From Aliivibrio fischeri ES114 (GTDB lineage Bacteria; Pseudomonadota; Gammaproteobacteria; Enterobacterales; Vibrionaceae): a DNA stretch of 32,000 bases. The notes under the pieces were generated by a model. The model searched no databases, was not told where the DNA came from, and worked only from the letters and a program-made list of their open reading frames with translations. The stretch is from assembly GCF_000011805.1 (NCBI RefSeq), contig NC_006841.2; one strand, given 5' to 3'. Shown here piece after piece: positions 1 through 25,821 of the stretch. Every line of letters starts with the position of its first letter. Within the stretch, counting starts at the first letter, position 1. A program made the translations under genes and the position numbers.

Positions 1-1712
1 AAATCGGTCTAGCTGGTGGTGGTGTATCTTACAGTCACCACTACTCAAGTGTTGGTGTTCCATCAACAGGATTCTCTGGTCCTGGTGGTTTCCCACGTAA
101 CGTGGACCAAGGTCATGAGCCTAAATGGAATAACAATGACTACAACGGTTACAGCAGTACAATTCCTGTTGCTCGTTGGATCGACTGTCTATTAGAACCA
201 GGTAAAGAGATCCGTTACAACGGTTCTAAAGTTGTACTACCTGATTTCAAAATGATGGTTATCTCTGGTAACAACCCTTGGCATCACCACCAAGATCGTA
301 ACCGTATGAAGAAAGCGTTCCAAAAACTTCAAACTGTTGTGACAATTGATTTCACTTGGACTGCAACATGTCGTTTCTCAGACATCGTGCTACCAGCGTG
401 TACGCAATGGGAACGTAATGATATTGACCAATACGGTTCATACTCTGCACGTGGTCTAATTGCAATGCATAAACTGGTTGATCCTCTGTATCAATCAAAA
501 TCAGACTTCGAGATCATGACTGAGCTAACACGTCGTTTTGGCCGTCATAGCAGTACAATTCCTGTTGCTCGTTGGATCGACTGTCTATTAGAACCAGGTA
601 AAGAGATCCGTTACAACGGTTCTAAAGTTGTACTACCTGATTTCAAAATGATGGTTATCTCTGGTAACAACCCTTGGCATCACCACCAAGATCGTAACCG
701 TATGAAGAAAGCGTTCCAAAAACTTCAAACTGTTGTGACAATTGATTTCACTTGGACTGCAACATGTCGTTTCTCAGACATCGTGCTACCAGCGTGTACG
801 CAATGGGAACGTAATGATATTGACCAATACGGTTCATACTCTGCACGTGGTCTAATTGCAATGCATAAACTGGTTGATCCTCTGTATCAATCAAAATCAG
901 ACTTCGAGATCATGACTGAGCTAACACGTCGTTTTGGCCGTCATAAAGAATACACTCGTGGTATGGATGAAATGGAGTGGATCCGTTCACTTTATGCAGA
1001 ATGTCGCACAGCGAACGAAGGCAAGTTTGAAATGCCTGAGTTTGATGAGTTCTGGGAAAAAGGTGTTCTAGACTTCGGTGAAGGTAAGCCATGGGTACGT
1101 CATGCTGCGTTCCGTGAAGATCCAGAAGTTAACGCATTAGGTACACCATCAGGCTTCATCGAAATTTCAAGTCGTAAGATTGAACGTTTCGGTTATGAGC
1201 ACTGTCAAGGTCACCCAATGTGGTTCGAAAAATCAGAACGTTCACATGGTGGTCCTGGTTCTAAGAAACACCCATTCTGGATGCAATCTTGTCACCCTGA
1301 CAAGCGTCTGCACTCACAAATGTGTGATTCAGAAGAGTTCCGTGCAACTTACACAGTTCAAGGTCGTGAGCCGGTATACTTAAACCCACAAGATGCTAAA
1401 GAAAAAGGCATCAAAGATGGTGATTTAGTACGCGTATTTAATGATCGTGGTCAACTACTAGCTGGTGCAGTTCTAACTGATAGCTACCCACGTGGTGTTA
1501 TCCGTATTGAAGAAGGTGCATGGTACGGTCCATTGAACGAAAAAGTAGGTGCTATTTGTACTTACGGTGATCCAAACACATTAACGCAAGATATCCCATC
1601 ATCTGAGCTAGCTCAGGCGACATCTGCAAACACATGTTTGGTTGATTATGAGAAGTTCACAGGTAAAGTTCCACCAGTAACGTCATTCGGTGGTCCAATT
1701 ATTATTGAATAA
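1..1712 (+). CDS. torA: Trimethylamine-N-oxide reductase TorA (bis-MGD molybdoenzyme), 5'-truncated by the window edge; carries an internal in-frame 132-aa tandem duplication
   Basis: The frame-3 ORF is open from base 3 ([16 protein letters not shown]...), so the listed Met at 102 is internal. It is colinear with E. coli TorA as I recall it ([57 protein letters not shown], and a C-terminal molybdopterin-binding domain ending LAQATSA). Stop at 1710-1712. Confidence 0.85.
153..944 (+). repeat. Perfect tandem direct duplication, 2 x 396 bp (153-548 and 549-944), in frame within torA
   Basis: I compared the two copies base by base and found them identical. The translation shows [14 protein letters not shown]...[11 protein letters not shown] twice in succession. 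Only 1 nt of junction ambiguity (a at 153/549/945). No flanking direct repeats of 2 nt or more. Confidence 0.95.
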
Positions 1713-1733
1713 TCATAATAATAAATAATATTA

Positions 1734-1762
1734 AAAAGCACCTAATTTAGGTGCTTTTTTTA
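1734..1762 (+). terminator. Rho-independent terminator of torA
   Basis: aaaaagcaccta-att-taggtgcttttttt: GC-containing stem with a 3-nt loop followed by a T-run, 22 nt after the torA stop. Confidence 0.8.
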
Positions 1763-1886
1763 TATATATAATTCATGATTTATAATATATATATCCAAGT
1801 TAAATTGATAACTAAATAACATATTCACAGAACTTATCTAATGCCGTTTTTTTTCTAAACTCGTGTTATTTCTCTATGAGAAATCA

Positions 1887-1914
1887 TAAACTTGTATTAT
1901 TCTCTCGCCGAAAT
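1887..1914 (+). promoter_or_regulatory. Candidate sigma-28 (FliA) promoter for the downstream chemoreceptor
   Basis: TAAA (1887-1890), 16-nt spacer, GCCGAAAT (1907-1914), compared with the consensus TAAA-N15-GCCGATAA. Located 36 nt upstream of ATG 1950. Chemoreceptor genes are commonly FliA-dependent. Confidence 0.35.
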
Positions 1915-1931
1915 TTCACATTGCGTGAAAT
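1913..1931. promoter_or_regulatory. Inverted repeat ATTTCAC-N5-GTGAAAT overlapping the predicted -10/start region of the chemoreceptor gene
   Basis: Perfect 7-bp arms read directly from the sequence. Function (operator or 5' hairpin) is unknown. Confidence 0.25.
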
Positions 1932-1949
1932 GTGCAGGATATAGCAAGA

Positions 1950-3935
1950 ATGTCACACAAATTATTAACTAATCTAAAAACAAAATATCAAATATTAGTC
2001 CCTGTATTAGCAACCATTATAGTAATGGTGGTAGCGATTTATCTGGTTAACTCTAAATTAGAGTCAACAAACAGAAATGTTCAGATTTCTGATCATCGTA
2101 GCCTTCAATTGAGCAATGTTTCAATTGCAGAATCACGTCTTCTTTTCTTACGATTAAGCGTATCTTCAGGCTTCACTAATTATGAAGTATTAAAATCAAT
2201 TGATTTTGATGGAATTACCGCTGAACTTAGTGCCAATTTTAAAAGTATGGTAGAAGAACAGCGTAAGCTACAAGAAATGAAAGCTGCGGTTAAAACACCT
2301 GAACAACTTCAAACTGAAGTCAACGTATTGATTTCTCAGCTTAACAGTTATAAAAAATATGCTGAAAACATTTCTAAATCTAATGATGCAAAAATAGAGG
2401 AATGGGGCAATTCACTGTATTTAACAACGCCTATTCAACAAGCAAGTGAATTAATATTTACAGCCTCTCAAAGTGAAGAATCAAAGCAGTATTGGAGTAA
2501 GGTAGTTCCTGAGGTTTACAATAAAGCTGGAAGCATCGAAATTCAAATGACGTCTTTATTTAATGATGATTTATATACATCAGTAAGTAAAACGCCAAGA
2601 ATTGACATTGTTAAACGAGATTTTGACGCATTAGCTAAATTAATTGCACCGCTAGAAAATAAAAAAGCAAAAGAGATTCTGGTTTCAGCATTTAAGGTTC
2701 AATCAGAATTAAATATGTCTTTATGGAATGCAACGGCTGATATTAATAAAAATAAGAAAGCATTGACCGAACTTGGTAATCTTATTTACCAAGAATTAAA
2801 TGATGAGAAAAATCGTTTAACTGAAATGAATGGAAAAATTTCAGATCATAATATGCAATTAATAGCAGAAAGTCAGAATCTATTATTAATGGCAATTACG
2901 ATTACAGTTATTATTTCTTTGATTATCGGAATATTTATTGCTCAAATAGTGACAAGACCGATTTTAATTCTACAAAAACAAATGTCTGATATATCAGAAG
3001 GTCGCTTAGATTCATTAAATGAACAATCAAGCGATAATGAGATTGGTGAGTTATGTAAAAATACAGATGGCACTGTCATTCGTTTGCAAGAAATGATTAG
3101 TAACTTACGAAATGTCGGAGAGGAAGTTTCTTCTTCATCAACAGAACTTGCAGCAATTATGGTGCAAAGTGAAGCTAATGCCTCTGATCAAAAATCGCAG
3201 GTTGATCTGATCGCAACAGCAATTACGCAATTGGCAGCATCAGCAAATCAAGTTGATGAGTCAGCTAACCAAGCTGATGCAAAAGCAAAAGAAGTGCTGA
3301 ACATGAGCCGTGATGGTGCGCGTTCTGCTTCTGAAGGCGTAAAATTAAGTCAAGACTTAGCATCTCAAATGGATGCAACCTCTGGTGAGGTAATGATACT
3401 TAAAGATCAAACTGACCGTATTAGCGAAGTTATTACTGTTATTGATTCAATCTCTGAGCAAACGAACTTACTTGCGTTGAATGCGGCCATAGAGGCGGCA
3501 CGAGCAGGAGAAAGTGGTCGTGGATTCGCGGTTGTTGCCGATGAAGTTCGTGTATTAGCGGCGAAGACACAGCAATCAACGCAGAACATTCAAAACATCA
3601 TTAATGAGCTACAACAGAAATCATTGAATGTTGTTGAATCAGTAAATCAATCGATAGAGATGATTCATCAAACCGCTCAAATGAGCATTGATACAAACAA
3701 TCAATTGCTTAATATTTCAGAGTCAATTGAACTCATTTCTGTAACGAACTCTGAGATGGCAACAGCGGCGAATGAACAAAACCGTGCAATTGAATCTATT
3801 AGCGAAAATGTAAATATGATCACTGAAACAATCAGCCAAAATGTTGAAGGGATCAAAGAGTCAACTCAAGCGAGTCAACACTTGTCAGAGCTGTCCGAGA
3901 ACCAAAGAGAACAATTATTGTTCTTCAAATTATAA
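1950..3935 (+). CDS. Methyl-accepting chemotaxis protein (paralog 1) with a long, predicted helical periplasmic sensor region
   Basis: Two hydrophobic segments ([19 protein letters not shown] and [21 protein letters not shown]) bracket about 275 aa, followed by a HAMP-like linker. The conserved MCP tip [32 protein letters not shown] is present. I preferred ATG 1950 (MSHKLL) over the ORF-track GTG at 1932. Confidence 0.9.
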
Positions 3936-3943
3936 CCAAAACA

Positions 3944-3969
3944 GAGCAGACAGCTATGGTTGTCTGCTC
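3944..3969 (+). terminator. Hairpin after chemoreceptor 1 (possible terminator)
   Basis: gagcagaca-N8-tgtctgctc, a perfect 9-bp stem 9 nt after the stop. The trailing T-run is poor (ctcatcttatt). Confidence 0.45.
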
Positions 3970-4003
3970 CTCATCTTATTGATTAACATTCTTTGGAATC
4001 ATT

Positions 4004-4120
4004 ATGAATAATATAAACAACGATTATATTACGACTGTTAGCAAAGAATCATTGCTGGCTTTAGGGCTTACAGACGAAGAAATCGAATATATATTAATTA
4101 TATTTGAGCTTGAACTGTAA
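4004..4120 (+). CDS. Small ORF a (38 aa), homologous to small ORF b at 8260-8406; unknown function
   Basis: Hand translation: MNNINNDYITTVSKESLLALGLTDEEIEYILIIFELEL. It aligns without gaps to ORF b over 22 aa (KE-----GLT-EE-[ED][YF][IL]--[IV]F). No convincing Shine-Dalgarno sequence. Confidence 0.35.
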   Translation: MNNINNDYITTVSKESLLALGLTDEEIEYILIIFELEL

Positions 4121-4331
4121 TAATTAGCGCTAAATTTGATGGGGTAAGACTACCTAAAAAAGTAAAATAACCACTCTCTATTGTTGATGTAATTCATATA
4201 ATTAATACTAATAAGCATCAAGACTTTCACTTTTATTTGTTCTTGTTGATTGTATTCTTAATAGTAGTATTCTATGCAGATTACAGAATTACCTGATTTT
4301 AGTTAATGCAGCAGTCAACACTAGGAAGTGA

Positions 4332-6071
4332 ATGATGAACCCACTATTTTTCTTATGTGGACAAGAAAGTATCCCGGTACAAACCGATTTAATCTATGAA
4401 TTCCAAAATGATCAAATATCGATGCATTTTTCAGGTATTCATAATCTTCCAATTAATGATCATTACCTTATTCTGCAATTTCCAACCCAATTAGAGCATG
4501 ACGCAAAAATTTTGGGGGATGGTTTTCAAATGCTTGCTCAGACAGGCGGAAAAGTTGACTCACCACAAGAGATCGGCCGCTGTCCTGATAATAGTCCTAG
4601 TTATCGAATTTATTCAGAGCACGCAAAAAAAAGATTTTATAATTATTTAGTGATTGAACAATCAGACGGATTTACTCTCTTTGGTTTTACTTCTTGTTAT
4701 CGATTTGCAGGTTATTTCGAGATACATGAATATCAAGGTTCAATGAATGTAATGGCATTTCTTGATGGTGAATTCACTCATCCACAAGATTGGGCTAGTA
4801 ATCGAATGGAGTCATTAACGGTTATTAAGGCTGAGTCTTTAGCTGAGTTATATGAGCTTTATGCAGCCAAAGTACAACAGCAGCACCCAATTCGACCAGG
4901 AGTAAAACAAGACGCTCCAATTGGTTGGTGCTCATGGTATGCCTACTATGCAGACGTTACAGAGAAAAACGTTTTAGATAATGTTGAGGTCATGTGCCAA
5001 AAAGACTCTGAATTTGAGTGGGTGCTTCTTGACGACGGATATCAAGCTTTCATGGGAGACTGGTTAACACCTTCAGATAAATTTCCTAATGGTATAAAAG
5101 CACTATTACAAGATATAAAAGCAAAAGGAAAGAAACCTGCTATTTGGATAGCTCCATTTATTGCACAACCTGAATCAGACATTTTTAAAAATCACCCAGA
5201 TTGGTTTGTTCATCACGAGAATGGTGAATTATTAAAAGCAGAAGATATTACTTATGGTGGCTGGCGTTGTACGCCTTGGTATATCCTTGATACTTCAAAA
5301 CAAGAAGTTCAAATACATTTAACAGAAGTTATCCACACCATGAGGGAAGAGTGGGGAGTAGAGCTGTTTAAACTGGATGCTAATTATTGGGGTACGCTTA
5401 AAGGTAAGCGAACACAATCAGGGATCACGGGTATTGAGGCTTATCGATTAGGTATGCAAGCTATTACAAACGGGGCTGGTGATGCGTTAATTCTTGGCTG
5501 TAATGCGCCAATGTGGCCATCATTGGGTCTAGTTGATGCAATGCGAGTATCTGATGATGTCGAACGTAATCCTCAACGTTTTGAACAGATAGCAAAAGAG
5601 ACATTTTACCGTAGCTGGCAGCACCGTAAATTATGGCAAATTGATCCTGATTGCGTCACGTTGATCTCACTGTCTAACCAAGGTACGGAACGAAAATATT
5701 ATGAATTTCATCGAAATGTGATTTTAGCTTCTGGTGGGCTTGCATTGTCTGGTGATCCGTTACCAGATTTGAATAAATTCGCAAAGAAAACATGGAAGAA
5801 TATTTTGTCTCGTCTTCGTTTAACTCAAGAGGCGGCTCAGTTTACTTCATTGAGTAATAGGCATTGCACATTAACACTCAATCATCAGCATGAACTACAT
5901 TGTTTATTTAACTATGACGATGAAGCAATGGAGCACACCCTTGTTGCTGATCAGCCATCTATTTGGCGAGATTTCTGGACGGGGGAGCAGTTAAATGAAG
6001 AACCAACACAGATGTTAATTTTAACTTTAGATAGTGGATTGAACAGTAAAGCTATCTTAGTTTCAAATTAA
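4332..6071 (+). CDS. Cytoplasmic glycoside hydrolase, clan GH-D / GH36-like (putative alpha-galactosidase, Sip1/raffinose-synthase-like subgroup)
   Basis: 579-aa ORF with no signal peptide. Motifs GWCSWYAYY, VLLDDGYQ, KFPNGIK, AIWIAPF, HPDWF, FKLDANY and MRVSDDV resemble the GH36/GH27 catalytic barrel. AGGAAG lies upstream of tandem ATGs at 4332 and 4335. Confidence 0.6.
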   Translation: MMNPLFFLCGQESIPVQTDLIYEFQNDQISMHFSGIHNLPINDHYLILQFPTQLEHDAKILGDGFQMLAQTGGKVDSPQEIGRCPDNSPSYRIYSEHAKKRFYNYLVIEQSDGFTLFGFTSCYRFAGYFEIHEYQGSMNVMAFLDGEFTHPQDWASNRMESLTVIKAESLAELYELYAAKVQQQHPIRPGVKQDAPIGWCSWYAYYADVTEKNVLDNVEVMCQKDSEFEWVLLDDGYQAFMGDWLTPSDKFPNGIKALLQDIKAKGKKPAIWIAPFIAQPESDIFKNHPDWFVHHENGELLKAEDITYGGWRCTPWYILDTSKQEVQIHLTEVIHTMREEWGVELFKLDANYWGTLKGKRTQSGITGIEAYRLGMQAITNGAGDALILGCNAPMWPSLGLVDAMRVSDDVERNPQRFEQIAKETFYRSWQHRKLWQIDPDCVTLISLSNQGTERKYYEFHRNVILASGGLALSGDPLPDLNKFAKKTWKNILSRLRLTQEAAQFTSLSNRHCTLTLNHQHELHCLFNYDDEAMEHTLVADQPSIWRDFWTGEQLNEEPTQMLILTLDSGLNSKAILVSN

Positions 6072-6094
6072 AATCTCAGTTAAAAATCAGAAAT

Positions 6095-6136
6095 AAGGCA
6101 GGTGTAATGTTTAAATTTACACTTGTCTTTTTTTAT
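6095..6136 (+). terminator. Rho-independent terminator of the glycosidase gene
   Basis: aaggcaggtgtaa-N9-ttacacttgtctt (13-bp stem including two G-U pairs) followed by a T-run. Confidence 0.75.
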
Positions 6137-6290
6137 GCCTAAAAACTTCTAAAATATACAAGAATAACTAGATTTAACTATTTGATTTAAAATAACTAAC
6201 TACTTTTTTCTTCGTTTTTGTTCATTTGAAGACGACTATTGGTATCCATATAATCCGACTCCCATTTTAAATCATAAATAGAGTTATTAT

Positions 6291-8270
6291 ATGAATGCTA
6301 TCAATCGTTTCTTACTGAATATCCCTCTACGATATCAAATACTCTTTCCCCCGCTTTTCGCTATTATGGTTATGATTATCTCTATGTTGATCATTTCATC
6401 TGCGATGAATCAATCGGTTAAGAACTCGGAAGTATTAAATGTTCGCTTGCAAGAAATGACGCATTTATCTAGCAGTGAAACAAAAATTTTGCAGATATTT
6501 AGTGAAATTAATCGTTCTCTATCAAATCCAGAAGCCTTAGAGAATGTGGATGATTATGTTTTTGAACAAATTGAATTGATTAATTATGATTTCAATTATA
6601 TTGAAGAAGAGCACAACAAGATAAAAGGTCAAAAGCATACAACACAGCAATTGATCATAGATTTAAACAAAGTTTCTGTTTTATTAGAAAACATGAAAGA
6701 CATTATTGAATCGAATCAAACCATTTCAAAAAAGATGCAAACGGAATGGGCTAAGTTACCTTATTTAAGTGACTCGATAGAGCTTTTAAGTAAAGAAGTT
6801 CAGGATAATGAGGAACACCATTGGATCGAAATGGAAGAGGCACTGTACTCTTCATCTGAGATATTACAAATAAAGTTAAATTCGCTATATAACTTTAATA
6901 TAGATAAGGAAGATTTTGAGATTATTGATGCTGAATTTATAAAAATAAACCAAGTAATTGATGATATTCATGAAAGTGATGCAAAAAGAAAAATACAACT
7001 AAATATTAGTAATTTACAATCAATTTATCATCAATTTTCTGAGTTAATTACTAATCTAAATAACAATAAATCGGATCTATTCAAAATTGAAAATAGCATT
7101 AATTACTTGATAAAAAATCAAAGTTCAAGAATTAATGAAATTAGTAGTACTTTATCAAAAGATAGTATTGAGCTTGTTTTTTCTAGCAAGCAAATGATTA
7201 TTATTTCTATGATTTGCTTTACGTTATTAACCATGCTGATCACATGGATTACGATTCGAACGATTGTGATGCCTATAAGGATTTTGAAGGATCAGATAGA
7301 GTTTCTTTCCGAAGGAAAACTGAATGAGTTGAATAACTTAATTGGCAGTAATGAAGTCGCCGAACTTTGTCAAAATACAGATAAAACGGCACATCATTTA
7401 CATCAGATAGTGAATGCTCTACGTGATATCGCCTCAGAGGTGTCTACGTCCTCATTAAGTCTTAATGTGTTAATGAATACGAATGAAAAAAATATATTAG
7501 AAGAGAAATCTCAGATTGAATTAATCGCAGCGGCTGTTACTGAATTATCGGCAGCAGCAACTCAAGTTGATCACGTTGCTATGAATGCAGATGAAAGAGC
7601 AAAAGAGGCATTGAACTTGAGCCGTTCTGGATCAGACACGGCTTCAGTAAGTAGTCAGTTAAGCCAAGAGCTGGTGAAACAAATGGGATTAACGGCTAAA
7701 GAAGTTGAGTCATTAAAGGTTCAATCAGAGCAAATTAGTGAGGTTATTACGGTCATAGACTCAATATCAGACCAAACTAATTTATTAGCATTAAATGCAG
7801 CGATCGAAGCGGCAAGAGCAGGTGAGAGTGGGCGAGGCTTTGCTGTTGTAGCTGATGAAGTTAGGATGCTTGCTGCAAAAACGCAACAATCAACATTAAC
7901 CATTCAAGAGGTCATCGATCGTTTGCAGAGTACATCTAATGATGTGGTTGAATCTGTTTCGAAATCAATCAAGATAATTAATGAAACTCAAGAAATGACA
8001 GAGAAAACAAACTCACAATTACTTGATATATCGAAAGAAATAGAAGAAATAACTTGTTCAAATACAGAAGTTGCGACCGCTGCAAATGAGCAAAATCAGG
8101 CCATTTTATCTATAAGTGAAAGCATTAATTTAATGACGGAGAATATTAATAAAAATATTGATGAAATGAATAAAATCAGCTCTAACGCCGATAAATTATC
8201 CGAGCTATCGACATCACAAGTAGAGCAACTTAAATTCTTCACTTTAATAGATAAAGATCATGAAAAGTAA
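6291..8270 (+). CDS. Methyl-accepting chemotaxis protein (paralog 2), same architecture as paralog 1
   Basis: 659 aa with an N-terminal TM ([22 protein letters not shown]), a second TM ([20 protein letters not shown]), a HAMP-like linker and the tip [32 protein letters not shown]. It is colinear with paralog 1 from the N-terminus (RYQILFP vs KYQILVP) to the C-terminus (EQLKFF vs EQLLFF). Confidence 0.9.
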
Positions 8271-8406
8271 TACAAAAAAAACAGGCTATCCTCAGAAAGA
8301 AGCGTCTATTTCTAATGGTTTAACTGCGGAAGAGAGGGATTTCCTTTATAAAGTGTTTTGTTTTCCATTTAATCAAACGTTAAAAAAAGAAGATACAGAG
8401 AAGTAA
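8260..8406 (+). CDS. Small ORF b (48 aa), homologous to small ORF a; its start overlaps the stop of chemoreceptor 2 by 11 nt
   Basis: Hand translation: [48 protein letters not shown]. It shares the KE..GLT.EE core with ORF a. No clear Shine-Dalgarno sequence. Confidence 0.35.
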
Positions 8407-8418
8407 ATAAACTAAATG

Positions 8419-8446
8419 CCATAGCAGCAAAGGTATGCTGCTATGG
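8419..8446. terminator. Bidirectional hairpin between the convergent chemoreceptor/small-ORF unit and the ToxR-like gene
   Basis: ccatagcagca-N6-tgctgctatgg, a perfect 11-bp stem. The flanks are A/T-rich but there is no long T-run. Confidence 0.6.
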
Positions 8447-8454
8447 TATGCATT

Positions 8455-9582
8455 TTAATAAAACTCTTTAACAATAAATGAAATATCTTGTTGTTCACTA
8501 TAAGTAAGGCTGAAGCCTTTATCTATAATATAAAAGTGCAGGTAGTTATACTTATTGTCGTTTTTGAATGTTTTGGGGAACATTTTTAGTTTCGTTTGAT
8601 CTTCAATGTGCCCATGCTGAATTAAGCTACTTTGTTCATCTTCATTAATAACATTTGATATTAAGGTATCTTTATCAAATTGAGCTTTAAAATCACTAAA
8701 ATAAGTATACTTCCCGTTATATCCAGTTTCTGAGATGTTAATTGACATATCTAAGTCATAGCTTTTATCTTCTTGAAGATTAAAGTAGAAATTATACGTC
8801 GCAAATGCAATGTAATCTTTATCATCATTTGATGTAAATTGAACATTAGTATGAAGATTAAAATTACCATCCTGATCGCTGTCTTTTTGAATGATAGGAT
8901 TATTATCTTGTTCTAAATCACTAGTAAGATTTTGATTTATTAGTGTCTCAACATTATCTTCATTTGTTTCAAGGAAAATAATTTTATTCGTAACATCATT
9001 ACATTTATGTTCGATAAATAAACACTGAGATAAAGACAGCTTATCTTCGCCAAGATGCAAAAAGTATAAGTAATTAGGTTGAATATTTAATTTTGTTATA
9101 TCAATAGGTTTAGAGGTGGATAACATATATATGTTATCTGATACTTTATTAAGGTTTTGAGTTATTGAGTTAGGTGCAACTTGCTTGAAAATAGGGAAGA
9201 TGAGAAAAAGAGAAACAAGAATAAGCACAGAAAAGAAGAGAAAATAGAACTTTTTAATTGGTTTTGCGAGTAGGCGATCTCCTGATTTATAACCTTTATT
9301 TTTTATTGTATCGATAATAGATATGTTATGAGTTAAGAATTTTTTCCTTAACAAGGATATTGTCTGGGTTACGACACTATTTGCAACGGAACCATCCTCC
9401 CAACATTGTGTATATATTTCATCTTTTGTATAAATTCGATTAGGATGGCTATAAAGAAGAAACAATAAATTAGCCTCGTTAAGGCTTATTTTTATCTCTT
9501 CTTTAGTGCTATTGATTACAACAGTTAAACTGCTGTAATCAATCGTGAGATTTTGGGTTTTAACTATCTCTTTTTTATTCAT
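8455..9582 (-). CDS. ToxR/CadC-like membrane-anchored transcriptional regulator (N-terminal OmpR-type winged helix, one TM, about 240-aa periplasmic domain of unknown type)
   Basis: The N-terminus fits the Trans_reg_C pattern (LNEANLLFLLYSHPNRIYTKDEIYTQCW...VVTQTISLLRKKF...IDTIKNKGY). TM segment FYFLFFSVLILVSLFLIFPIF. The periplasmic part is N/D-rich with a C-x6-C pair (SQCLFIEHKCND). AGGA lies 5 nt upstream of the ATG, directly after the sapF stop. Confidence 0.75.
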   Translation of the reverse strand: MNKKEIVKTQNLTIDYSSLTVVINSTKEEIKISLNEANLLFLLYSHPNRIYTKDEIYTQCWEDGSVANSVVTQTISLLRKKFLTHNISIIDTIKNKGYKSGDRLLAKPIKKFYFLFFSVLILVSLFLIFPIFKQVAPNSITQNLNKVSDNIYMLSTSKPIDITKLNIQPNYLYFLHLGEDKLSLSQCLFIEHKCNDVTNKIIFLETNEDNVETLINQNLTSDLEQDNNPIIQKDSDQDGNFNLHTNVQFTSNDDKDYIAFATYNFYFNLQEDKSYDLDMSINISETGYNGKYTYFSDFKAQFDKDTLISNVINEDEQSSLIQHGHIEDQTKLKMFPKTFKNDNKYNYLHFYIIDKGFSLTYSEQQDISFIVKEFY

Positions 9583-9591
9583 TAGTATCCT

Positions 9592-10416
9592 TTAACATTC
9601 AATTTTTGGCGTTGCAGCACTGATGCGCTGTTTTCTATCGTGAGTTGGAGCATCAAAATGACTTTCTAAAAGACGCTGCGTAATTGAATGTTGAGGGTTA
9701 GAAAAAATTTCCTCTGTCGGCCCTTTTTCTACAACTTCCCCTTCATGCATCACCATTACTTTATCGGTAATGTGTTTCACTACACCTATGTGTTGTGATA
9801 CATAAATAAATGAAATGGCCATTTCTTGTTGCAATTCCAAAAATAAATTAATGATTTGAGAACGCATCGCCATATCTAAACCGTTTAATGCTTCATCAGC
9901 AACGATAATTGATGGTTGAAGAATCAATGCACGAGCCAAACAAACACGCTGTTTTTGACCTGTTGCAAGCATTTGTGGGTAAAAATACGCATGCTCAGGT
10001 AATAAGCCTACACGAAGCAAGGTGTCCTTTACTCGTTGTTGGCGTGCTTCAGGTGGCATGCTGGTATTACGTTTTAATGGGCCTTCTAAAATTCGGCCAA
10101 TTTGAATTCTAGGATTTAATGAGGAGTTTGGATCCTGAAAAATCATTCGAATCAATTTACAGCGAGTTTGGAAGTCTTTGTAATCTAATACTTCGCCATT
10201 AACTTTGATTATCCCTGATGTTGGTTCAACAACTCCTGCTAACATACGAGCAAGTGTGGATTTACCAGAGCCATTCGCTCCAATAAACCCAAGAGTTTGT
10301 CCCGCTTCTAAAGAAAAGCTAACGGGCTTAACTGCCTCACGTACTTGTTTACGAAATAATCCAGTACGAAATACATAGTCTTTTTTAAGATCAGTAACTT
10401 CAAGAAGCGCAGTCAT
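9592..10416 (-). CDS. sapF: Peptide ABC transporter ATP-binding protein SapF
   Basis: Walker [10 protein letters not shown], signature-like TGQKQR, Walker B IIVADE, and its position as the last sap gene. I set the start at ATG 10416 (MTALLEV) with GAGGAG 7 nt upstream. The ORF-track TTG at 10431 gives an unlikely MRRRR extension. Confidence 0.8.
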
Positions 10417-11413
10417 TCTTCTTCTCCTCAAAATTTAATGGGAAATGGCAGCTAAATTTGTGATCTTTCACTTTTTGTCTCTCTGGAACTTGAACACATT
10501 TACGTTGCGCATATGGACAACGAGGCCCAAGACGGCAGCCAATGGGTAAATGTTGTAGAGGTGGAATTGTGCCAGGTAGTGATTCCAACTTAGCTTTATG
10601 TGGGATCCCATCTTTACTAAAATCAGGCATAGCACGAAGCAGTGCATTGGTATAGGGATGCTTTGGTGCTTCAAGGATATCTTTACGACAAGCTGATTCT
10701 ACCGATTGACCACAATACATCACCGTGATTCGGTCTACCCACTGAGTAAGGGTGATTAAGTCGTGGCTGATTAATAAAATTGTCGTGTTATTAACCTGGT
10801 TCATTCGACTTAGTAGACGGAATATTTGTGACTGTGTCACTGCATCTAATTCATCGGTTGGTTCATCTGCAATTAAGATACGTGGTTTGTTGGCAATCGC
10901 CATTGCGATCATCACTTTTTGACATTCACCATCCGTTAATTCATATGGATAGCATTTCATTATGTGTTTATGATCTTTAATACCAACCTTGTGGAGTAGG
11001 GCTATTGCACCTTTCGTTCGCCAATTCCATCTTTGCCACCAGCTACCAGTAAAGTACTTGGAAGGAATCGCTTCTTTTAGTTGGTTACCCACTTGTTCTG
11101 ATGGGTCAAGGCAGGTTGATGGCTCTTGGAAGATCATTGCCATTTCACGTCCGATAACTCGGCGTCGCTCTTTAGGAGATAGGGCTAATAAATCAATGTT
11201 ACCTAGACGCATACGGTCTGCACTGATTTTCCAGTTATCTTTAGTGATACCTAAAATGGCTTTAGCAACGAGAGATTTTCCTGAGCCAGATTCTCCCACT
11301 AAACCACGAATTTCACCTTCATTTAAGGTTAAGCTCATGCGGTCAACGGCTTTCACCATGCCTTGTGGCGTTTCTAACTCAATGGTTAAATGGCGAATAT
11401 CTAATAATGGCAT
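10400..11413 (-). CDS. sapD: Peptide ABC transporter ATP-binding protein SapD
   Basis: Walker A GESGSGKS, Walker B ILIADEP, and an oligopeptide-type C-terminal extension. Gene order is sapABCDF next to pspF, as in E. coli. Confidence 0.8.
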
Positions 11414-12300
11414 TATTCTGTCCCCGCATTTAACGCACGTTGAATACCGTCACCAACTAAGTTGATGATGATGACTGTAAAGGTAATTACAATTCCAGGT
11501 AACGTCACTGTCCATGGTGCTGTATAAATTAACTCAACAGAATCTCCTAACATGGCTCCCCACTCGGGACTAGGAGCCTGTGCTCCTAAACCTAGAAAAC
11601 CTAACGCAGTGATATCTAAAATGGCAATAGAGATAGCAAGCGTCATTTCTGCAACCATAACGACAAGAATATTAGGTAATATGGAATTCCATAAGAGATA
11701 GAAGTTGTTTGCTCCATCTAATCGTGCAGCAAGAATATAATCCTTTTCAACCTCATTATGAACCGCTGTATAAACAGCTCGAACAAAGCGTGGGATAAGC
11801 GCGAGCCAAATAGCTAATAAAATATTAAATTCCCCAAATCCTAAAAATGCCACGAAAATGATCGCAAGCAATAAAGATGGGATAGATAAAATGGTATCGA
11901 GTAGGTGGTTTAACGTACTGGATAGTAATCCCTTTGTCATACCTGCAAAAATACCAATTACGCAGCCAACAAACCCTGATAGCAGGGCAACGATAACCGC
12001 ATAACCAAAAGTTAATTGTGATCCCATAAGTAATCGTGACAAGATATCTCTACCTAGGTCGTCAGTACCTAAGAAAAAGATAACCTCCCCCTCAGAGCTC
12101 CATGATGGAGGCATCAGTAAATAATCTGACTGCCATTGTGGATCATATGGACTTAACCATGGCGAGGTGACGGTGATAATTACAATCAGTAATAAGCACC
12201 AAAAACCGAACATCGCGAGTGAATTCGCTCGATAACTCAACCAGAAACGTTCCATTTGAGTAGGGATATGTTCTTCTTGATAAACATTATTTGAGAGCAT
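11413..12300 (-). CDS. sapC: Peptide ABC transporter permease SapC
   Basis: 295-aa multi-TM BPD-type permease resembling DppC/OppC. Its stop overlaps the sapD start (TAATG). Confidence 0.8.
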
Positions 12301-13234
12301 AGAACTCTTTCCTTACTAACGGGTTAACTGCTGCACCCAGTAAATCAGATAAAATGTTGGCTAATAAAATGAATGACGCAACAGTTATAACGCCAGCCTG
12401 AATGGCGACAAAATCTTGATTAATAATGGCATCAAGTAGCCAGTGCCCAATACCTGGCCAATTAAAAATGGATTCAGTTAAGATCGCCGCGGTAAATAAG
12501 CCCGATAATTGAACTCCTAATTTTGGAATAATTGGAGGTAAAGCATTACGGATTATGTGCTTGACCATGATTTCAAATTTAGACAGGCCTTTAGTATGAG
12601 CAACTTTGATGTAGTTTTGTGTAATAACTGTTGCGACGGACGAGCGCATTAAACGAACAACTTCTGTCATCGGCGCAATGGAAAGTACTAATGTGGGTAA
12701 AATTAAATGCTGAATAATGTTCTCAAGCATTTCTGCCCGATAAGGCGATTTTGAGGCAAGCACATCAATAAAGGCAAACCCTGTTTTAGCATCGAATTCA
12801 TACAATAAGCTGTAACGACCTGAAACTGGAGTTACGCCTAGTTGTAAACCTAATAAAGCAATCCAGAATAAAGGCATGGAATAACCAACTAATGCGATTG
12901 ATGAGATTAGTGTATCTAAAGGCTTACCTCTACGCATTCCGGCAATAGTACCAATCGGCGTACCTATAATCAGTGCAATAAAGAAAGCAAAGAAACAAAG
13001 TTCGATAGTCGCAGGGAAGACTCGAAGTATTTCATTAAGCATTTTTACGCCATATTGATTAACTCCTAAATTACCGTTTAATAGTTGACCAAGATAAGTT
13101 AACCAACCAGATAAAAAAGGCGTTTGCGCCCAAGCAGATGTATCATCTAGGCGTAAAATATTAAAACCAATCAGAGTTAAAATGAGTAAGGTAATAACAA
13201 ATAAATTAAAGCGTCTAATGGTATAAATCCACAT
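12287..13234 (-). CDS. sapB: Peptide ABC transporter permease SapB
   Basis: 315-aa multi-TM permease resembling DppB/OppB. It overlaps sapC by 14 nt and is TAATG-coupled to sapA. Confidence 0.8.
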   Translation of the reverse strand: MWIYTIRRFNLFVITLLILTLIGFNILRLDDTSAWAQTPFLSGWLTYLGQLLNGNLGVNQYGVKMLNEILRVFPATIELCFFAFFIALIIGTPIGTIAGMRRGKPLDTLISSIALVGYSMPLFWIALLGLQLGVTPVSGRYSLLYEFDAKTGFAFIDVLASKSPYRAEMLENIIQHLILPTLVLSIAPMTEVVRLMRSSVATVITQNYIKVAHTKGLSKFEIMVKHIIRNALPPIIPKLGVQLSGLFTAAILTESIFNWPGIGHWLLDAIINQDFVAIQAGVITVASFILLANILSDLLGAAVNPLVRKEFYALK

Positions 13235-14859
13235 TAGTTCAACTCCTTAACTCTAACAACGTTATGGAAAGAGTAAGTATTAAAAGGGCTTAATGTGAAG
13301 CCTGTTAAAGAAGATTGATTTGCTTGATATTTAACACCGTGAGCCAGAGGGATAACGGGTAATTCTTCACTTAATACATTTTGGATTTGGCGATAAATAT
13401 TAATACGATATCTTGGTTGATTTGTTTCTTTAGCTAAATCTAATAACAGATCAAACTCCTCGTTACACCAGTTTGCAACACCAAAACCCGCTTGTTTAGC
13501 ATCACACGAAAGTAACGGTCTAAGTAATGAATCAGGATCTGAACTGTTTGCATTCCAGCCTGTAAGCACCAAATCGACATCAGCATCTTTTAATTCATTC
13601 GGATTTAAAATATCAGAGGTGAGTATTTTTAAATCTATGCCTAATTTTGCAAAGTCACTTTGAATAATCTCTGCAGATTTTTTCGGACTTGGATTGTATG
13701 AGTTATTATCCAGCGGGACCCACATGGTGAGTTCTAACCCATCTTTAACGCCGGCTTCTCGTAACAAGCCTTTGGCGTAATTGAGATCATAGCGAATGTG
13801 TGAGCTGTCATTACCATAAGCCCATGATGCGGGAGGTAAAATGGATTTTGCTTCAATTCCTGAATTGTAATAAACCGAATTAATTAGGCTAGAACGGTCG
13901 ATAGCAAAACTGAGTGCCTTTCGAACTCGTTGATCTTGTAATATCGGTTCTCGCATATTAATTGCGATATAAGCTACATTCATTGCCGTTTGTGAGTATA
14001 AAGTCAATGCATCATTAGCAATAATGATTGGTAGTTGGCTTGATATTGGATTGGCAACAACATCGCATTCTTGGCGCAGTAATTTTGCTAAAGAGCCTGT
14101 CCCTCTGCTAGAGATATCAAAGACAACTTGAGACATGTTTGCAGGACCTTGCCAGTATTGTTCATGACGCTTCAAGCGAACTAATTCACTTCTTTGGAAT
14201 TGAGCTAACTTAAATGGACCAGTACCTACTGGCTTAACATCAATTAATGTTTTTTCGTCTATTGCTGCTAATTGTTGTGCGTACTCCTCTGAATGAATAA
14301 CCGCATAGCTTGCAGCGAGAACTGATAAGAAAGTGTTATCTGGTGTTGATAAAGTAAATCGCACTTTATGAGGGGTGATTGCTTCAACAGATGTAACCAT
14401 TTGAGAAAAGTTTATGCTGTTAAACCAAGGATAGTCTCCTGAATTAACGTTATGAAATGCGTTATTTTTATCTAAGATTCGATTAAAACTGAATGCTACA
14501 TCACTAGCTGTTAAAGCTCGGGATGGAGTAAACCATTCGGTTGTATGAAATTGAACATTTTCTTTTAAATCAAATGTATAAACTGTACCCGTATCATCAA
14601 CCTGCCAAGAGGTCGCGAGGTTAGCTGAAGGTTTTTGCGTAACAGGAGCTATGATAAGCAAACGGTCATAAACTTGAGCGCTTATGGCCTCCAGAATGCT
14701 GTTGCCGTCAGAAATCTGTGGGTTGAAAAAATCCACATTTCCAGATTCACAATAAATGAATCCTGTGTCATGAATCGTTTGTTTGATCCCCGCATCATAA
14801 CAAGCTGTTAGATTAAATAATCCAGTAGCAGCTATGAGTAGGCGCGCAATAATCTTCAT
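13234..14859 (-). CDS. sapA: Periplasmic peptide-binding protein SapA (family 5 SBP)
   Basis: 541 aa with an N-terminal signal/lipobox-like sequence (LIAATGLFNLTAC). SBP_bac_5-like throughout and first gene of the sap cluster. Confidence 0.8.
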   Translation of the reverse strand: MKIIARLLIAATGLFNLTACYDAGIKQTIHDTGFIYCESGNVDFFNPQISDGNSILEAISAQVYDRLLIIAPVTQKPSANLATSWQVDDTGTVYTFDLKENVQFHTTEWFTPSRALTASDVAFSFNRILDKNNAFHNVNSGDYPWFNSINFSQMVTSVEAITPHKVRFTLSTPDNTFLSVLAASYAVIHSEEYAQQLAAIDEKTLIDVKPVGTGPFKLAQFQRSELVRLKRHEQYWQGPANMSQVVFDISSRGTGSLAKLLRQECDVVANPISSQLPIIIANDALTLYSQTAMNVAYIAINMREPILQDQRVRKALSFAIDRSSLINSVYYNSGIEAKSILPPASWAYGNDSSHIRYDLNYAKGLLREAGVKDGLELTMWVPLDNNSYNPSPKKSAEIIQSDFAKLGIDLKILTSDILNPNELKDADVDLVLTGWNANSSDPDSLLRPLLSCDAKQAGFGVANWCNEEFDLLLDLAKETNQPRYRINIYRQIQNVLSEELPVIPLAHGVKYQANQSSLTGFTLSPFNTYSFHNVVRVKELN

Positions 14860-14936
14860 AATGACCGTAGTTTTATCGATTTAAATTAATGAACCTGCCA
14901 TTTTATACCCAAGTGACTGGTTCTGCACTCAAATAT

Positions 14937-15956
14937 CTAAGAATATCCCTTGATTGTGGTCAAGAGTTGATGTTTTTTTAATAATCCACGAAATTGATGG
15001 TAAGTAATGCCTAATTCTTCAGCAGCTTTTCGTTGGTGGTACTGTGTTTCAACTAATGCTTGTTGCAGTAATTCTTTTTCTTGATCTAATTGAAATTGCT
15101 TTAGATTCAAAGGTAAAGATGGTTTGCTATCTTGCGTTACCGTCTTGTTGATTATAGTTGAAGAATTTTTTGTTGGCGCATTTTCCCAAGGTGCAATAAA
15201 TGGGTTTATTTGAATGGATTCTATCTGAGCTTCTTCATGGTTATGTTTAAATACCGCTCGTTCAATACAATTACGAAGTTCGCGAACATTACCTGGCCAG
15301 TCATAATCTAAAATTTGATGTTTAGCTTGGTGCGAGAAACCAGCGAAATAAGTAAGGTTCATTTCCTGACACATTTTGATTGCAAAATGTTCTGCAAGTA
15401 ATAAAACATCGTTTTCACGGTATCGCAGTGGTGGTAGATGAATGACATCAAAAGAGAGTCTATCTAATAGATCTGCTCGAAATTTTTTCTCATTAACCAT
15501 TTCTTGAGGGTTTTGATTAGTTGCACAAATTAGACGAACATTGGCTTTTAATGTTTGTGACCCACCAACTCGTTCATATTCACCATACTCAATCACTCTA
15601 AGTAGCTTTTCTTGTACAGTAAGAGGAGCAGTAGTGAGTTCATCTAAAAATAAAGAGCCGCCATCGGCACGTTCAAATCGACCTTGATGACGTTGCTTTG
15701 CACCCGTAAAAGATCCTGCATCGTGGCCGAAAAGTTCCGAATCGAGAGTTCCGGAGTTTAGAGCTGCACAATTTAAGCTAATCAATGGCTCATTCCAGCG
15801 TCTAGATAAAAAATGCAAACGCTGAGCAATTAACTCTTTACCTGTTCCTCTTTCACCAAGGATTAGTATCGGTCTATCAATTGTCGCTAATTGTGAAGCA
15901 TGGTCTAACGCAGATAAGAATGCATCAGACTCCCCAACTAAACTGTCTTTTCTCAT
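14937..15956 (-). CDS. pspF: Sigma-54-dependent activator PspF (AAA+ domain plus C-terminal HTH, no receiver domain)
   Basis: GERGTGKELIA Walker A, GAFTGA-type loop (GSFTGA), DELTTAP Walker B, C-terminal HTH (QRKAAEELGITYHQFRGLLKKH). Divergent from pspA. Confidence 0.9.
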   Translation of the reverse strand: MRKDSLVGESDAFLSALDHASQLATIDRPILILGERGTGKELIAQRLHFLSRRWNEPLISLNCAALNSGTLDSELFGHDAGSFTGAKQRHQGRFERADGGSLFLDELTTAPLTVQEKLLRVIEYGEYERVGGSQTLKANVRLICATNQNPQEMVNEKKFRADLLDRLSFDVIHLPPLRYRENDVLLLAEHFAIKMCQEMNLTYFAGFSHQAKHQILDYDWPGNVRELRNCIERAVFKHNHEEAQIESIQINPFIAPWENAPTKNSSTIINKTVTQDSKPSLPLNLKQFQLDQEKELLQQALVETQYHQRKAAEELGITYHQFRGLLKKHQLLTTIKGYS

Positions 15957-15980
15957 CAGATCTCCATTCTTATGGTTATT

Positions 15981-16032
15981 TTGACCAAAAAGTAGTGGTT
16001 TTAATCATGACTTATTTTTATTGTGTGGTCAA
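15981..16032. promoter_or_regulatory. Candidate PspF upstream activating sites (inverted TTGACCA heptamers)
   Basis: TTGACCA at 15981-15987 and TGGTCAA at 16026-16032, about 40-90 bp upstream of the sigma-54 element. The assignment rests on position only. Confidence 0.3.
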
Positions 16033-16069
16033 TTTTAAATAAGTTATTGATTTTTATGGAGTGAAAAAG

Positions 16070-16085
16070 TGGCATGCATTGTGTA
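16070..16085 (+). promoter_or_regulatory. Sigma-54 promoter of pspABC
   Basis: TGGCAT-GCATT-GTGT has correct GG-N10-(G)T spacing. E. coli pspA, as I recall it, also has a TTGT-type -12 element. Located 47 nt upstream of ATG 16132. Confidence 0.55.
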
Positions 16086-16131
16086 ATAGCTATATTAAAA
16101 GCAAAATCGTTTATTTAGTGAGGATTCAATT

Positions 16132-16797
16132 ATGGGTATTTTTTCACGTTTTGCAGATATCGTTAATTCTAATGTAACTTCTTTATTGGATAAGGCTGAA
16201 AATCCAGAAAAAATGATCCGTTTGATCATTCAAGAGATGGAAGATACGTTAGTTGAGGTACGCACAGCATCAGCAAAAGCGTTGGCAGATAAAAAAGAGT
16301 TAACTCGCAAAATTAGCTCTATTGAAGCACAAGTTGCTGATTGGCAAGATAAAGCAAGTTTGGCATTACTTAAACAAAGAGAAGATCTTGCGCGTTCAGC
16401 ATTAATTGAAAAACAAAAAGTTCAGGATATTCTTTCTAGCTTAAAAACCGAATTTATTTTGGTAGAAGAGAGTATTGAGAAGCTGAGCGCAGAATTAATT
16501 GAGTTAGAAACTAAACTGACAGAAACAAGAGCAAGACAACAAGCATTAGTCATTCGCCAACAAACTGCACAGCATAGGAATGACATAAAATCACATACAC
16601 ATTCGGGTAAGACAGAACGTGCTATGGCTAAATTTGAGCAATATGAACGCCGAATTGATGAGTTAGATGCTAAAGCTGACAGTTACTCTATTGGAAAAGC
16701 AAATTCATTAGAACAAGAGTTTGCTGAACTGCAAGCGCAAGATGAAATTGATAAAGAAATTGAGCGTCTAAAAGAACAAATGAAGAAAGACGCATAG
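16132..16797 (+). CDS. pspA: Phage shock protein A
   Basis: 221-aa coiled-coil protein with the canonical N-terminus MGIFSRFADIVNSNVTSLLDKAENPEKMIRLIIQEMEDTL. Confidence 0.95.
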   Translation: MGIFSRFADIVNSNVTSLLDKAENPEKMIRLIIQEMEDTLVEVRTASAKALADKKELTRKISSIEAQVADWQDKASLALLKQREDLARSALIEKQKVQDILSSLKTEFILVEESIEKLSAELIELETKLTETRARQQALVIRQQTAQHRNDIKSHTHSGKTERAMAKFEQYERRIDELDAKADSYSIGKANSLEQEFAELQAQDEIDKEIERLKEQMKKDA

Positions 16798-16860
16798 TCT
16801 TCTACCTGAGCAACAATTATCTGAATGGGTAGAGAGTTAATAATTATTTAGGAGAAAACA

Positions 16861-17085
16861 ATGAGTAGCTTTTTTGCTTTCCCATTGGCTGTATTTTTTA
16901 TTTTTGTTGCACCTTTATGGTTGTTTTTGCATTACCGAAATAAAGGCAAAGCAGGCCAAGGTTTGTCATACGAAGATGGTCAGTTATTGAAATCAATGAC
17001 AGAACGTGCAGATAAAATGCAAAAACGCATTGAAACGTTAGAGAAAATCCTAGATTCGGAGTCCCCAAGTTGGAGGGAGCGCTAA
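16861..17085 (+). CDS. pspB: Phage shock protein B
   Basis: 74 aa with a single N-terminal TM and a position between pspA and pspC. GGAG lies upstream. Confidence 0.9.
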   Translation: MSSFFAFPLAVFFIFVAPLWLFLHYRNKGKAGQGLSYEDGQLLKSMTERADKMQKRIETLEKILDSESPSWRER

Positions 17086-17471: not shown

Positions 17472-17503
17472 CCTTATTTATAACAAAGTAATACCTTGTT
17501 CAT

Positions 17504-25816: not shown

Positions 25817-25821
25817 TTCAA

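What the first reader, a model, noticed from the sequence alone, without database searches (positions are those of the whole stretch)
153..944. Base-perfect 396-bp in-frame tandem duplication inside the TMAO reductase gene torA
Bases 153-548 and 549-944 are identical. The predicted TorA therefore carries the 132-aa block [18 protein letters not shown]...[11 protein letters not shown] twice in a row, and the frame continues normally to the native C-terminus. Aligned to E. coli TorA as I recall it, the block lies in the molybdopterin-binding core just before the C-terminal cap domain. Doubling it should disrupt cofactor binding or folding. Zero divergence between copies, a 1-nt junction microhomology and the absence of IS or target-site repeats point to two options. 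Either this is a very recent illegitimate-recombination or slippage event, or it is an assembly or construction artefact. If real, such a duplication can collapse by RecA-dependent recombination. That could make it a reversible on/off switch for TMAO respiration, which is speculation.
Basis: partly seen in the sequence, partly recalled or inferred. Interest (0 to 1): 0.85.

Follow-up and report, generated by a model that had tools for sequence, protein, structure and literature searches.

The report
Uncorrected assembly duplication in ES114 torA
The perfect 396-bp tandem repeat inside the TMAO reductase gene is really in this sequence, but it is almost certainly a leftover assembly error in the 2005 Aliivibrio fischeri ES114 reference genome, not a biological duplication.

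Summary
Window 153-548 and 549-944 are identical (396 nt, 132 codons, in frame, 1-nt junction overlap), and this is the only long repeat in the 32 kb.

The window is Aliivibrio fischeri ES114 chromosome II (NC_006841, about 330001-362000). The resulting 952-aa TorA is exactly the deposited ES114 protein (AAW87369.1 / WP_011263185.1 / Q5E0S7) and occurs on that one contig only.

Evidence against a real duplication:
- Independent assemblies of the ES114 lineage match the collapsed window with no mismatch over 7.5 kb. They differ at one base in 15.5 kb, and that base is a published ES114 reference error. All have one copy and an 820-aa TorA.
- All 80 Vibrionaceae orthologues examined are single-copy.
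- Mandel, Stabb and Ruby (2008) showed by PCR that this assembly held 14 false tandem "expansions" of 318-1264 bp. Their screen relied mainly on split ORFs. torA is absent from their tables and no tested primer lies in it.

Best explanation (about 0.92): a fifteenth, uncorrected artefactual expansion. A private real duplication in the sequenced clone is not excluded (about 0.06). The on/off switch idea has no support. Biological interest is low, but the reference record should be corrected.

The parts
1..1712 (+). 3' part of torA, the catalytic subunit of periplasmic TMAO reductase TorECA. Window base 3 is the first base of native codon 384, and the stop codon is at 1710-1712. The gene runs off the 5' end of the window.
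   Evidence: Translation. Pfam PF00384 and PF01568. The native 820-aa protein aligns end to end with Shewanella massilia TMAO reductase 1TMO (1295 bits). The upstream genes torE (NapE family) and torC (Cytochrom_NNT) are seen in L001.
153..548 (+). Copy 1 of the 396-bp block (TorA residues 434-565).
   Evidence: Identical to 549-944. Single-copy assemblies align to window 1-549 and then resume at 549.
549..944 (+). Copy 2 of the 396-bp block. One of the two copies is extraneous, and which one is arbitrary.
   Evidence: Removing 396 bp makes the window 100% identical over 7539 bp to four independent ES114-lineage contigs.
548..549 (.). The novel junction ...GGCCGTCAT|AGCAGTACAA..., with only one ambiguous base (A) of overlap. 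It is the only sequence that exists solely in the two-copy form.
   Evidence: The 42-mer across the junction is absent from genome contigs and metagenome contigs and from all 102 loci fetched. Flank comparison.

Best explanation
The duplication is an assembly artefact, an "artefactual expansion", that survives in the Aliivibrio fischeri ES114 chromosome II reference (NC_006841.2 / CP000021, about positions 330153-330944). It is not a feature of the organism. In the Sanger shotgun assembly of about 2001-2005, two sequence pieces overlapping by 396 bp were most likely joined head to tail instead of merged (mechanism inferred, as proposed by Mandel et al. 2008 for 14 verified cases in the same assembly). 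The repeat is perfect and its length is a multiple of three. It therefore did not split the ORF and so escaped the 2008 clean-up, which found targets mainly through split ORFs and suspect ORF ends. It is also invisible to ordinary read-mapping pipelines, because every read from a one-copy genome maps perfectly somewhere in the two-copy reference (inference). The real ES114 torA is single-copy and encodes a normal 820-aa TorA precursor.
For: (1) Source identified. The 952-aa protein built from the window plus the identical upstream sequence is exactly AAW87369.1 / WP_011263185.1 / UniRef100_Q5E0S7 of A. fischeri ES114. It is seen on 1 contig of 1,330,333 bp.

(2) Window coordinates. The only mismatch to independent contigs is window 9595, A versus G. 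It is the last codon of a 274-aa ABC ATPase, TGT. This is the published variant 'NC_006841 339595 A->G, sapF C274C', shared by about 60 resequenced ES114 derivatives and judged an error of the original assembly (PMC4573307).

(3) Independent same-strain assemblies are single-copy. Logan contigs from SRR27724182, SRR32215518 and SRR32215524 are 100% identical to the collapsed window over 7539 bp. The SRR26984628 contig, which starts within the last 126 nt of torA, matches over 6349 bp. The contigs show 1 mismatch in 15,523 bp against the window. SRR27724178 has 0 mismatches in 19,298 bp. Other A. fischeri strains differ by 1.2-3% in the same regions.

(4) Contig structure. Of 23 contigs carrying the ES114 allele of the adjacent MCP gene, 18 hold an uninterrupted 820-aa torA. 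None shown ends at a duplication boundary.

(5) Allele counts. The single-copy 820-aa allele is on 145 contigs in 191 index blocks.

(6) Orthologues. All 80 Vibrionaceae orthologues are 816-822 aa with no internal repeat.

(7) Precedent in the same assembly. There were 14 tandem expansions of 318-1264 bp, each shown by PCR to be absent from ES114 and attributed to contig ends misassembled in tandem (PMC2330054).

(8) torA was never examined. It is absent from their Table 1, their text and all five supplements. None of the 50 chromosome-II or unassigned primers tested maps to torECA. Target 176 primers map 8 kb away, at window 9056-9531.

(9) Reference status. NC_006841.2 was still the mapping reference in 2025 (PMC12369376).

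(10) Junction. It has essentially no microhomology (1 nt). That is expected for end-to-end concatenation and is atypical of RecA-independent duplications (general knowledge).
Against: No raw reads or PCR from the sequenced stock could be examined, so the artefact is inferred, not demonstrated. [quoted passage not shown] They also compared the ES114 and MJ11 chromosomes visually in Mauve and did not flag it. Short-read assemblers can in principle under-represent a true tandem repeat. My argument that a k=31 graph would break at a real junction is inference, not a test. That the Logan runs are ES114 derivatives is inferred from sequence identity and the shared 339595-G fingerprint, not from sample metadata.
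Confidence: 0.92

Rival explanations
1. A real but private mutation. The particular ES114 clone sequenced around 2001-2005 carried a newly arisen 396-bp tandem duplication in torA (illegitimate recombination or template switching). The duplication is absent from, or has collapsed in, all other stocks.
For: The copies are perfectly identical and lack the few unique bases at the ends that Mandel et al. describe as typical of their artefacts. The duplication survived the v2.0 revision (WP_011263185.1 exists). Tandem duplications do arise spontaneously and are lost by homologous recombination (general knowledge).
Against: Only one contig in the whole collection carries it. Every independent ES114-lineage assembly examined is single-copy. 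A 1-nt junction is poor substrate for microhomology-mediated duplication. The prior for one specific clone carrying such an event is small. Against that stand 14 proven artefacts of the same kind in the same assembly (PMC2330054). From memory and unread here, Dunn & Stabb 2008 (PMC2519543, not held) reported TorECA as the main TMAO reductase activity of ES114, which would be unlikely with a doubled core segment.
Confidence: 0.06
2. A genuine, recurring and reversible duplication that acts as an on/off switch for TMAO respiration, expanding by slippage and collapsing by RecA.
For: None beyond the formal possibility that a perfect 396-bp direct repeat can recombine.
Against: No second occurrence of the junction was found in genome contigs, metagenome contigs or any of 102 fetched loci. 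Of 23 contigs with the ES114 MCP allele, 18 hold an uninterrupted single-copy torA and none shown ends at a duplication boundary, so no graph branching is evident there. No repeat or microhomology is present that could drive recurrent formation.
Confidence: 0.01
3. An old, tolerated domain duplication in TorA, or a sequence edit introduced when the window was prepared.
For: None.
Against: The copies show zero divergence, and the duplication is absent in 80 related species and in conspecific strains, which rules out an old duplication. The identical 952-aa protein is in GenBank, RefSeq and UniProt under ES114 accessions, which rules out a window-specific edit.
Confidence: 0.01

Closest known systems
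The 14 'artefactual expansions' of the V. fischeri ES114 v1.0 assembly (Mandel, Stabb & Ruby 2008, BMC Genomics 9:138; PMC2330054)
   Same: Same genome assembly. Unique DNA is repeated directly in tandem. At 396 bp it falls within their 318-1264 bp range. It is absent from conspecific strains, and independent sequencing of the strain gives the shorter form.
   Different: It was not in their list and not corrected in v2.0. It is base-perfect, without the few unique bases at the ends. It is in frame, so it lengthens one ORF instead of splitting or truncating ORFs, which plausibly explains why it was missed. Absence has not yet been confirmed by PCR.
Residual ES114 reference errors catalogued by Foxall et al. 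2015 (PMC4573307, Additional file 1)
   Same: Differences between the reference and all resequenced ES114 derivatives, where the resequenced allele matches other Vibrionaceae. One of them (NC_006841 339595 A->G) lies in this very window at position 9595.
   Different: Their list holds only point changes and indels of 1-3 bp found by breseq. A collapsed perfect tandem repeat produces no mismatched reads, so it is not in the list (the reason is inferred).
TorA / DMSO reductase family molybdoenzymes (Shewanella massilia TorA, PDB 1TMO; E. coli TorA, 9H4T)
   Same: The one-copy protein is a canonical 820-aa Tat-exported TorA with PF18364, PF00384 and PF01568 in a torECA operon. It aligns end to end with 1TMO.
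   Different: Only the deposited ES114 record carries the extra 132 residues. No family member seen here has them.
Genuine unstable tandem duplications and amplifications in bacteria (Salmonella/E. coli work reviewed by Reams & Roth; recalled from general knowledge)
   Same: A perfect direct repeat that could formally collapse by homologous recombination.
   Different: Real cases form between repeats or microhomologies and are seen as junction reads and raised depth in the population. Here there is no microhomology and no independent junction.

Membership tests
ES114 assembly 'artefactual expansion' (Mandel et al. 2008) | Lies in the published ES114 reference sequence | tested here: met
   Exact 952-aa product equals AAW87369.1 / WP_011263185.1 on the 1,330,333-bp contig. 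The window maps to NC_006841 about 330001-362000 through the 339595 variant and through target-176 primers.
ES114 assembly 'artefactual expansion' (Mandel et al. 2008) | Unique DNA incorporated twice in direct tandem, over 300 bp (318-1264 bp) | tested here: met
   396 bp, 2.0 copies, 100% identity. The size range comes from PMC2330054.
ES114 assembly 'artefactual expansion' (Mandel et al. 2008) | Extra copy absent from conspecific strains and orthologues | tested here: met
   TorA is 820 aa in 10 NCBI A. fischeri assemblies and 816-822 aa in 80 species. No internal repeat was found.
ES114 assembly 'artefactual expansion' (Mandel et al. 2008) | Amplification or sequencing from ES114 itself yields the shorter, one-copy product | tested here: inconclusive
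As a proxy, ES114-lineage Logan contigs have one copy (0-1 mismatch in 15-19 kb and the 339595-G fingerprint). The strain identity of those runs is inferred from sequence, not metadata.
ES114 assembly 'artefactual expansion' (Mandel et al. 2008) | A few unique or low-quality bases at the ends of the repeat (described as typical, not universal) | tested here: not met
   The copies are identical and the junction is clean.
TorA (periplasmic TMAO reductase, DMSO reductase family) | Domain set PF18364 + PF00384 + PF01568, end-to-end similarity to solved TorA, torE-torC-torA operon | tested here: met
   (1TMO 1295 bits over residues 4-820).
Genuine microhomology-mediated tandem duplication | Several bases of microhomology at the breakpoints, or flanking repeats or IS elements | tested here: not met
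   One shared base downstream and none upstream. No other repeats in the 32 kb.
Genuine microhomology-mediated tandem duplication | Junction present in independent sequence data from the same strain | tested here: not met
   The junction 42-mer is absent from all fetched loci and from two public collections. Raw reads were not testable.
Duplication-based reversible (phase-variable) switch | Both states coexist or recur in populations or lineages | not testable with these tools
   This needs read-level population data. Assemblies show only the one-copy state outside the reference.

The most novel reading that the evidence does not exclude
The sequenced ES114 clone really carried a spontaneous in-frame 396-bp tandem duplication that inactivated TorA. 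Such a duplication would be unstable and could revert to one copy by homologous recombination, giving heterogeneity in TMAO respiration among laboratory stocks of a model symbiont.
Probability: 0.06. Interest if true: 0.35.

Novelty: not a real feature. Interest (0 to 1): 0.1.

Why it matters
Biologically this is ordinary: ES114 almost certainly has a normal TorA. The practical value lies in data quality.

- NC_006841.2 is still the standard mapping reference for V. fischeri genetics, including breseq, RNA-seq and Tn-seq (for example PMC12369376 in 2025).
- The 792-bp doubled stretch makes reads multi-map, which halves or voids signal over part of torA.
- It propagates a 952-aa TorA into RefSeq and UniProt (WP_011263185.1, Q5E0S7).
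- It shifts all downstream coordinates by 396 bp relative to the true chromosome.
- It shows that an in-frame, base-perfect assembly expansion can survive both a dedicated comparative clean-up and years of resequencing by read mapping.

Tried and rejected
- **Junction search.** An exact search for the 42-nt junction in genome contigs and metagenome contigs found nothing. This fits an artefact but is weak alone, because the GTDB representative for the species is another strain.
- **Homologue search.** I ran the search for homologous proteins with the doubled 264-aa block to look for any natural two-copy TorA. Only fragment clusters came back (best 271 bits, about one copy's worth). The apparent 68% query coverage was a spurious BLASTP extension. 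The 952-aa protein sits in a cluster represented by a 191-aa fragment, so this search says little.
- **Literature.**
  - Dunn & Stabb 2008 on ES114 TMAO reductases (PMC2519543) is not held, so what I say about it is from memory.
  - Searches on torA, ES114 and guessed locus tags VF_A0288-0302 found nothing relevant.
  - Dillon et al. 2016 and Pankey et al. 2017 use the reference as is and do not mention torA.
- **AlphaFold2 on the 569-aa window fragment.** Copy 2, next to the C-terminal domain, is modelled at pLDDT about 57-90. Copy 1 is mostly below 50. The alignment rows cover only copy 2, so this is confounded and does not show that the extra copy cannot fold.
- **Rejected readings.** An old domain duplication is ruled out by zero divergence and absence in all relatives. 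A window-specific edit is ruled out because the protein is in GenBank. An IS- or repeat-mediated event is ruled out because no such elements are present.

Full report
**1. The observation**

Window 153-548 and 549-944 are identical base for base. Tandem Repeats Finder reports one array at 153-945: period 396, 2.0 copies, 100% matches, no indels. The period-396 identity extends 397 nt, so the junction has a single ambiguous base (A). There is no shared base on the upstream side.

This is the only long repeat in the 32-kb window. All 373 repeated 25-mers have offset 396 and there are no inverted 25-mers. The block is 132 codons and starts on a codon boundary. The frame is open from window base 3 to the stop at 1710-1712, so SSTIPVARW...TRRFGRH is encoded twice in a row.

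**2. What the gene is**

- The ORF has Pfam PF00384 (Molybdopterin, two matched stretches because of the repeat) and PF01568.
- In related contigs it is preceded by a NapE-family gene (torE) and a pentahaem cytochrome gene (torC).
- The one-copy protein (820 aa) aligns end to end with Shewanella massilia TMAO reductase 1TMO (1295 bits), and next best with a 'Trimethylamine-N-oxide reductase 1' entry, 9H4T (976 bits).
- The repeated block is residues 434-565 of the 820-aa precursor.

**3. Where the window comes from**

I joined the upstream part of torA from a contig identical over the overlap to the window's two-copy 3' part. The resulting 952-aa protein is present exactly in the public protein collection as AAW87369.1 / WP_011263185.1 / UniRef100_Q5E0S7, 'TMAO reductase I, catalytic subunit [Aliivibrio fischeri ES114]'. 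It is seen on a single contig of 1,330,333 bp, the size of ES114 chromosome II. The duplication is therefore in the deposited reference genome and was not introduced into the window.

The coordinates can be fixed from one base. The only difference between the window and independent contigs is window 9595, A versus G. It is the third base of the last codon (TGT, Cys274) of a minus-strand ABC ATPase. Foxall et al. 2015 list exactly 'NC_006841 339595 A->G, C274C (TGT->TGC), sapF' among differences shared by about 60 resequenced ES114 derivatives. They attribute these to errors in the original assembly (PMC4573307). So the window is NC_006841 about 330001-362000, and the repeat is at about 330153-330944.

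As a cross-check, the primers for Mandel et al.'s resequencing target 176 (VF_A0304) map to window 9056-9531.

**4. What independent sequence of the same strain shows**

| Source | Comparison | Result |
|---|---|---|
| SRR27724182, SRR32215524 (Logan contigs) | window 549-16071 | 1 mismatch in 15,523 bp (the known 339595 site) |
| SRR27724182, SRR32215518, SRR32215524 | collapsed window | 100% identity over 7539 bp |
| SRR26984628 (contig starts within the last 126 nt of torA) | collapsed window | 100% identity over 6349 bp |
| SRR27724178 | window 12703-32000 | 0 mismatches in 19,298 bp |
| Other A. fischeri strains | same regions | 78-126 mismatches per 4.3 kb; 210-311 per 19.3 kb |

The contigs from SRR27724182 and SRR32215524 align to window 1-549 and then resume at 549, which means one copy. 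Given the 1.2-3% divergence of other strains, these runs are ES114 or its derivatives. They also carry the ES114 laboratory G allele at 339595.

Of 23 contigs carrying the ES114 allele of the adjacent chemoreceptor gene, 18 contain an uninterrupted 820-aa torA. The remaining five end elsewhere (torA nt 423, or 126 nt before the stop), not at a repeat boundary.

In a k=31 de Bruijn graph, a real tandem repeat would add junction k-mers and create branches at the block ends, so contigs should break there. They do not. This step is inference.

The junction 42-mer occurs in none of the 102 loci fetched. It is also absent from genome contigs and metagenome contigs.

**5. Relatives**

- The exact one-copy 820-aa allele is on 145 contigs in 191 index blocks, including ten NCBI assemblies.
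- All 80 best Vibrionaceae orthologues (Aliivibrio, Photobacterium, Vibrio) span 816-822 residues and have no internal repeat.
- An old tolerated duplication is excluded.

**6. Why an artefact is the best explanation**

Mandel, Stabb and Ruby (2008; PMC2330054) re-examined this very assembly. [quoted passage not shown] The sizes were 318-1264 bp. In all 14, PCR from unique flanks gave smaller bands than predicted, and sequencing led to precise deletion of the repeated DNA.

Their targets came mainly from MJ11 proteins whose reciprocal best hits were two neighbouring ES114 ORFs. Others came from ORFs with suspect 5' or 3' ends seen in Mauve. A base-perfect repeat whose length is a multiple of three neither splits the ORF nor alters its ends, so it would pass that screen.

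torA is absent from their Table 1, their text and all five supplementary files. None of the 50 chromosome-II or unassigned primers I tested lies in torECA. The existence of a WP_ accession for the 952-aa protein shows the repeat persisted in v2.0, and NC_006841.2 was still the mapping reference in 2025.

Foxall's breseq-based error list does not contain it either. That is expected: reads from a one-copy genome all map perfectly to a two-copy reference, so no variant evidence arises (inference).

Being in frame is therefore not a biological signal. It is a survivorship effect: only such an expansion would have escaped.

The clean junction with 1 nt of overlap fits end-to-end concatenation. It is atypical of RecA-independent duplications, which usually use several bases of microhomology (general knowledge).

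**7. What argues the other way**

- I could not look at reads or run PCR.
- Mandel et al. describe their expansions as typically having a few unique bases at the ends, and this one has none.
- Their whole-chromosome Mauve inspection did not flag it.
- A private real duplication in the sequenced clone therefore remains possible. I put it at about 6%.

If it were real, the extra 132 residues are a non-autonomous piece of the molybdopterin-binding core and would probably wreck the enzyme. An AlphaFold2 model of the window fragment places copy 2 confidently and leaves copy 1 mostly below pLDDT 50. However, the alignment covers only copy 2, so this is not independent evidence.

From memory, Dunn & Stabb 2008 found TorECA to be the main TMAO reductase of ES114, which would fit a normal gene. 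That paper is not held here, so this is a lead and not a result.

**8. The switch hypothesis**

Nothing supports a reversible on/off switch. There is no second sighting of the junction, no sign of graph branching at the block ends in the 18 ES114-allele contigs that span torA, and no sequence feature that could regenerate the duplication repeatedly.

**9. Verdict**

The feature is most likely (about 0.92) a fifteenth, uncorrected artefactual expansion in the ES114 chromosome II reference. It matters for data curation, not for biology. A single PCR, or a search of public ES114 reads for the junction 42-mer, would settle it.

Noticed in passing
window 9595: The reference has A where independent ES114-lineage contigs have G. 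This is the published ES114 reference variant NC_006841 339595 A->G (sapF C274C, synonymous) from Foxall et al. 2015. It is a second residual reference discrepancy in the same window and fixes the window's genomic coordinates.
   Followed up: yes
window 9056-9531 (ORF 8455-9582, minus strand): Primers 176F and 176R of Mandel et al. 2008 map here, so this Trans_reg_C ORF is VF_A0304, which was frameshift-corrected in v2.0. The authors resequenced 8 kb from the torA repeat without touching it.
   Followed up: yes
window 20047-20144 (+): TPP riboswitch (RF00059, 76.5 bits against a gathering score of 54.3), just upstream of a thiamine salvage/biosynthesis and ABC-transport cluster at 20247-25816.
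   Followed up: partly
window 3240-3279: Short 21-nt tandem repeat (1.9 copies, 84% matches) inside the chemoreceptor (MCP) gene at 1950-3935. Probably trivial.
   Followed up: no
window 14937-17471: Phage-shock operon: a sigma-54 activator (PspF-like) on the minus strand at 14937-15956, divergent from pspA at 16132-16797. Related contigs call pspB and pspC in the stretch that follows, about window 16860-17471. It lies next to the sapABCDF-like peptide ABC transporter at 9592-14859.
   Followed up: no
L086 (A. fischeri H905, CP160630.1), locus positions about 1799-2977 and 5858-7684: In this complete genome no torC gene was called upstream of torA, and the adjacent MCP is 608 aa instead of 661 aa. 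Frameshifts or assembly errors in that record are possible.
   Followed up: no
protein cluster of P0001: The 952-aa ES114 TorA is filed in a 90%-identity cluster whose representative is a 191-aa fragment from another Vibrio. A homologue search with the doubled block returned only fragment clusters and no full-length TorA. This is a quirk of the clustering and index, and worth knowing when using that tool for duplicated proteins.
   Followed up: partly
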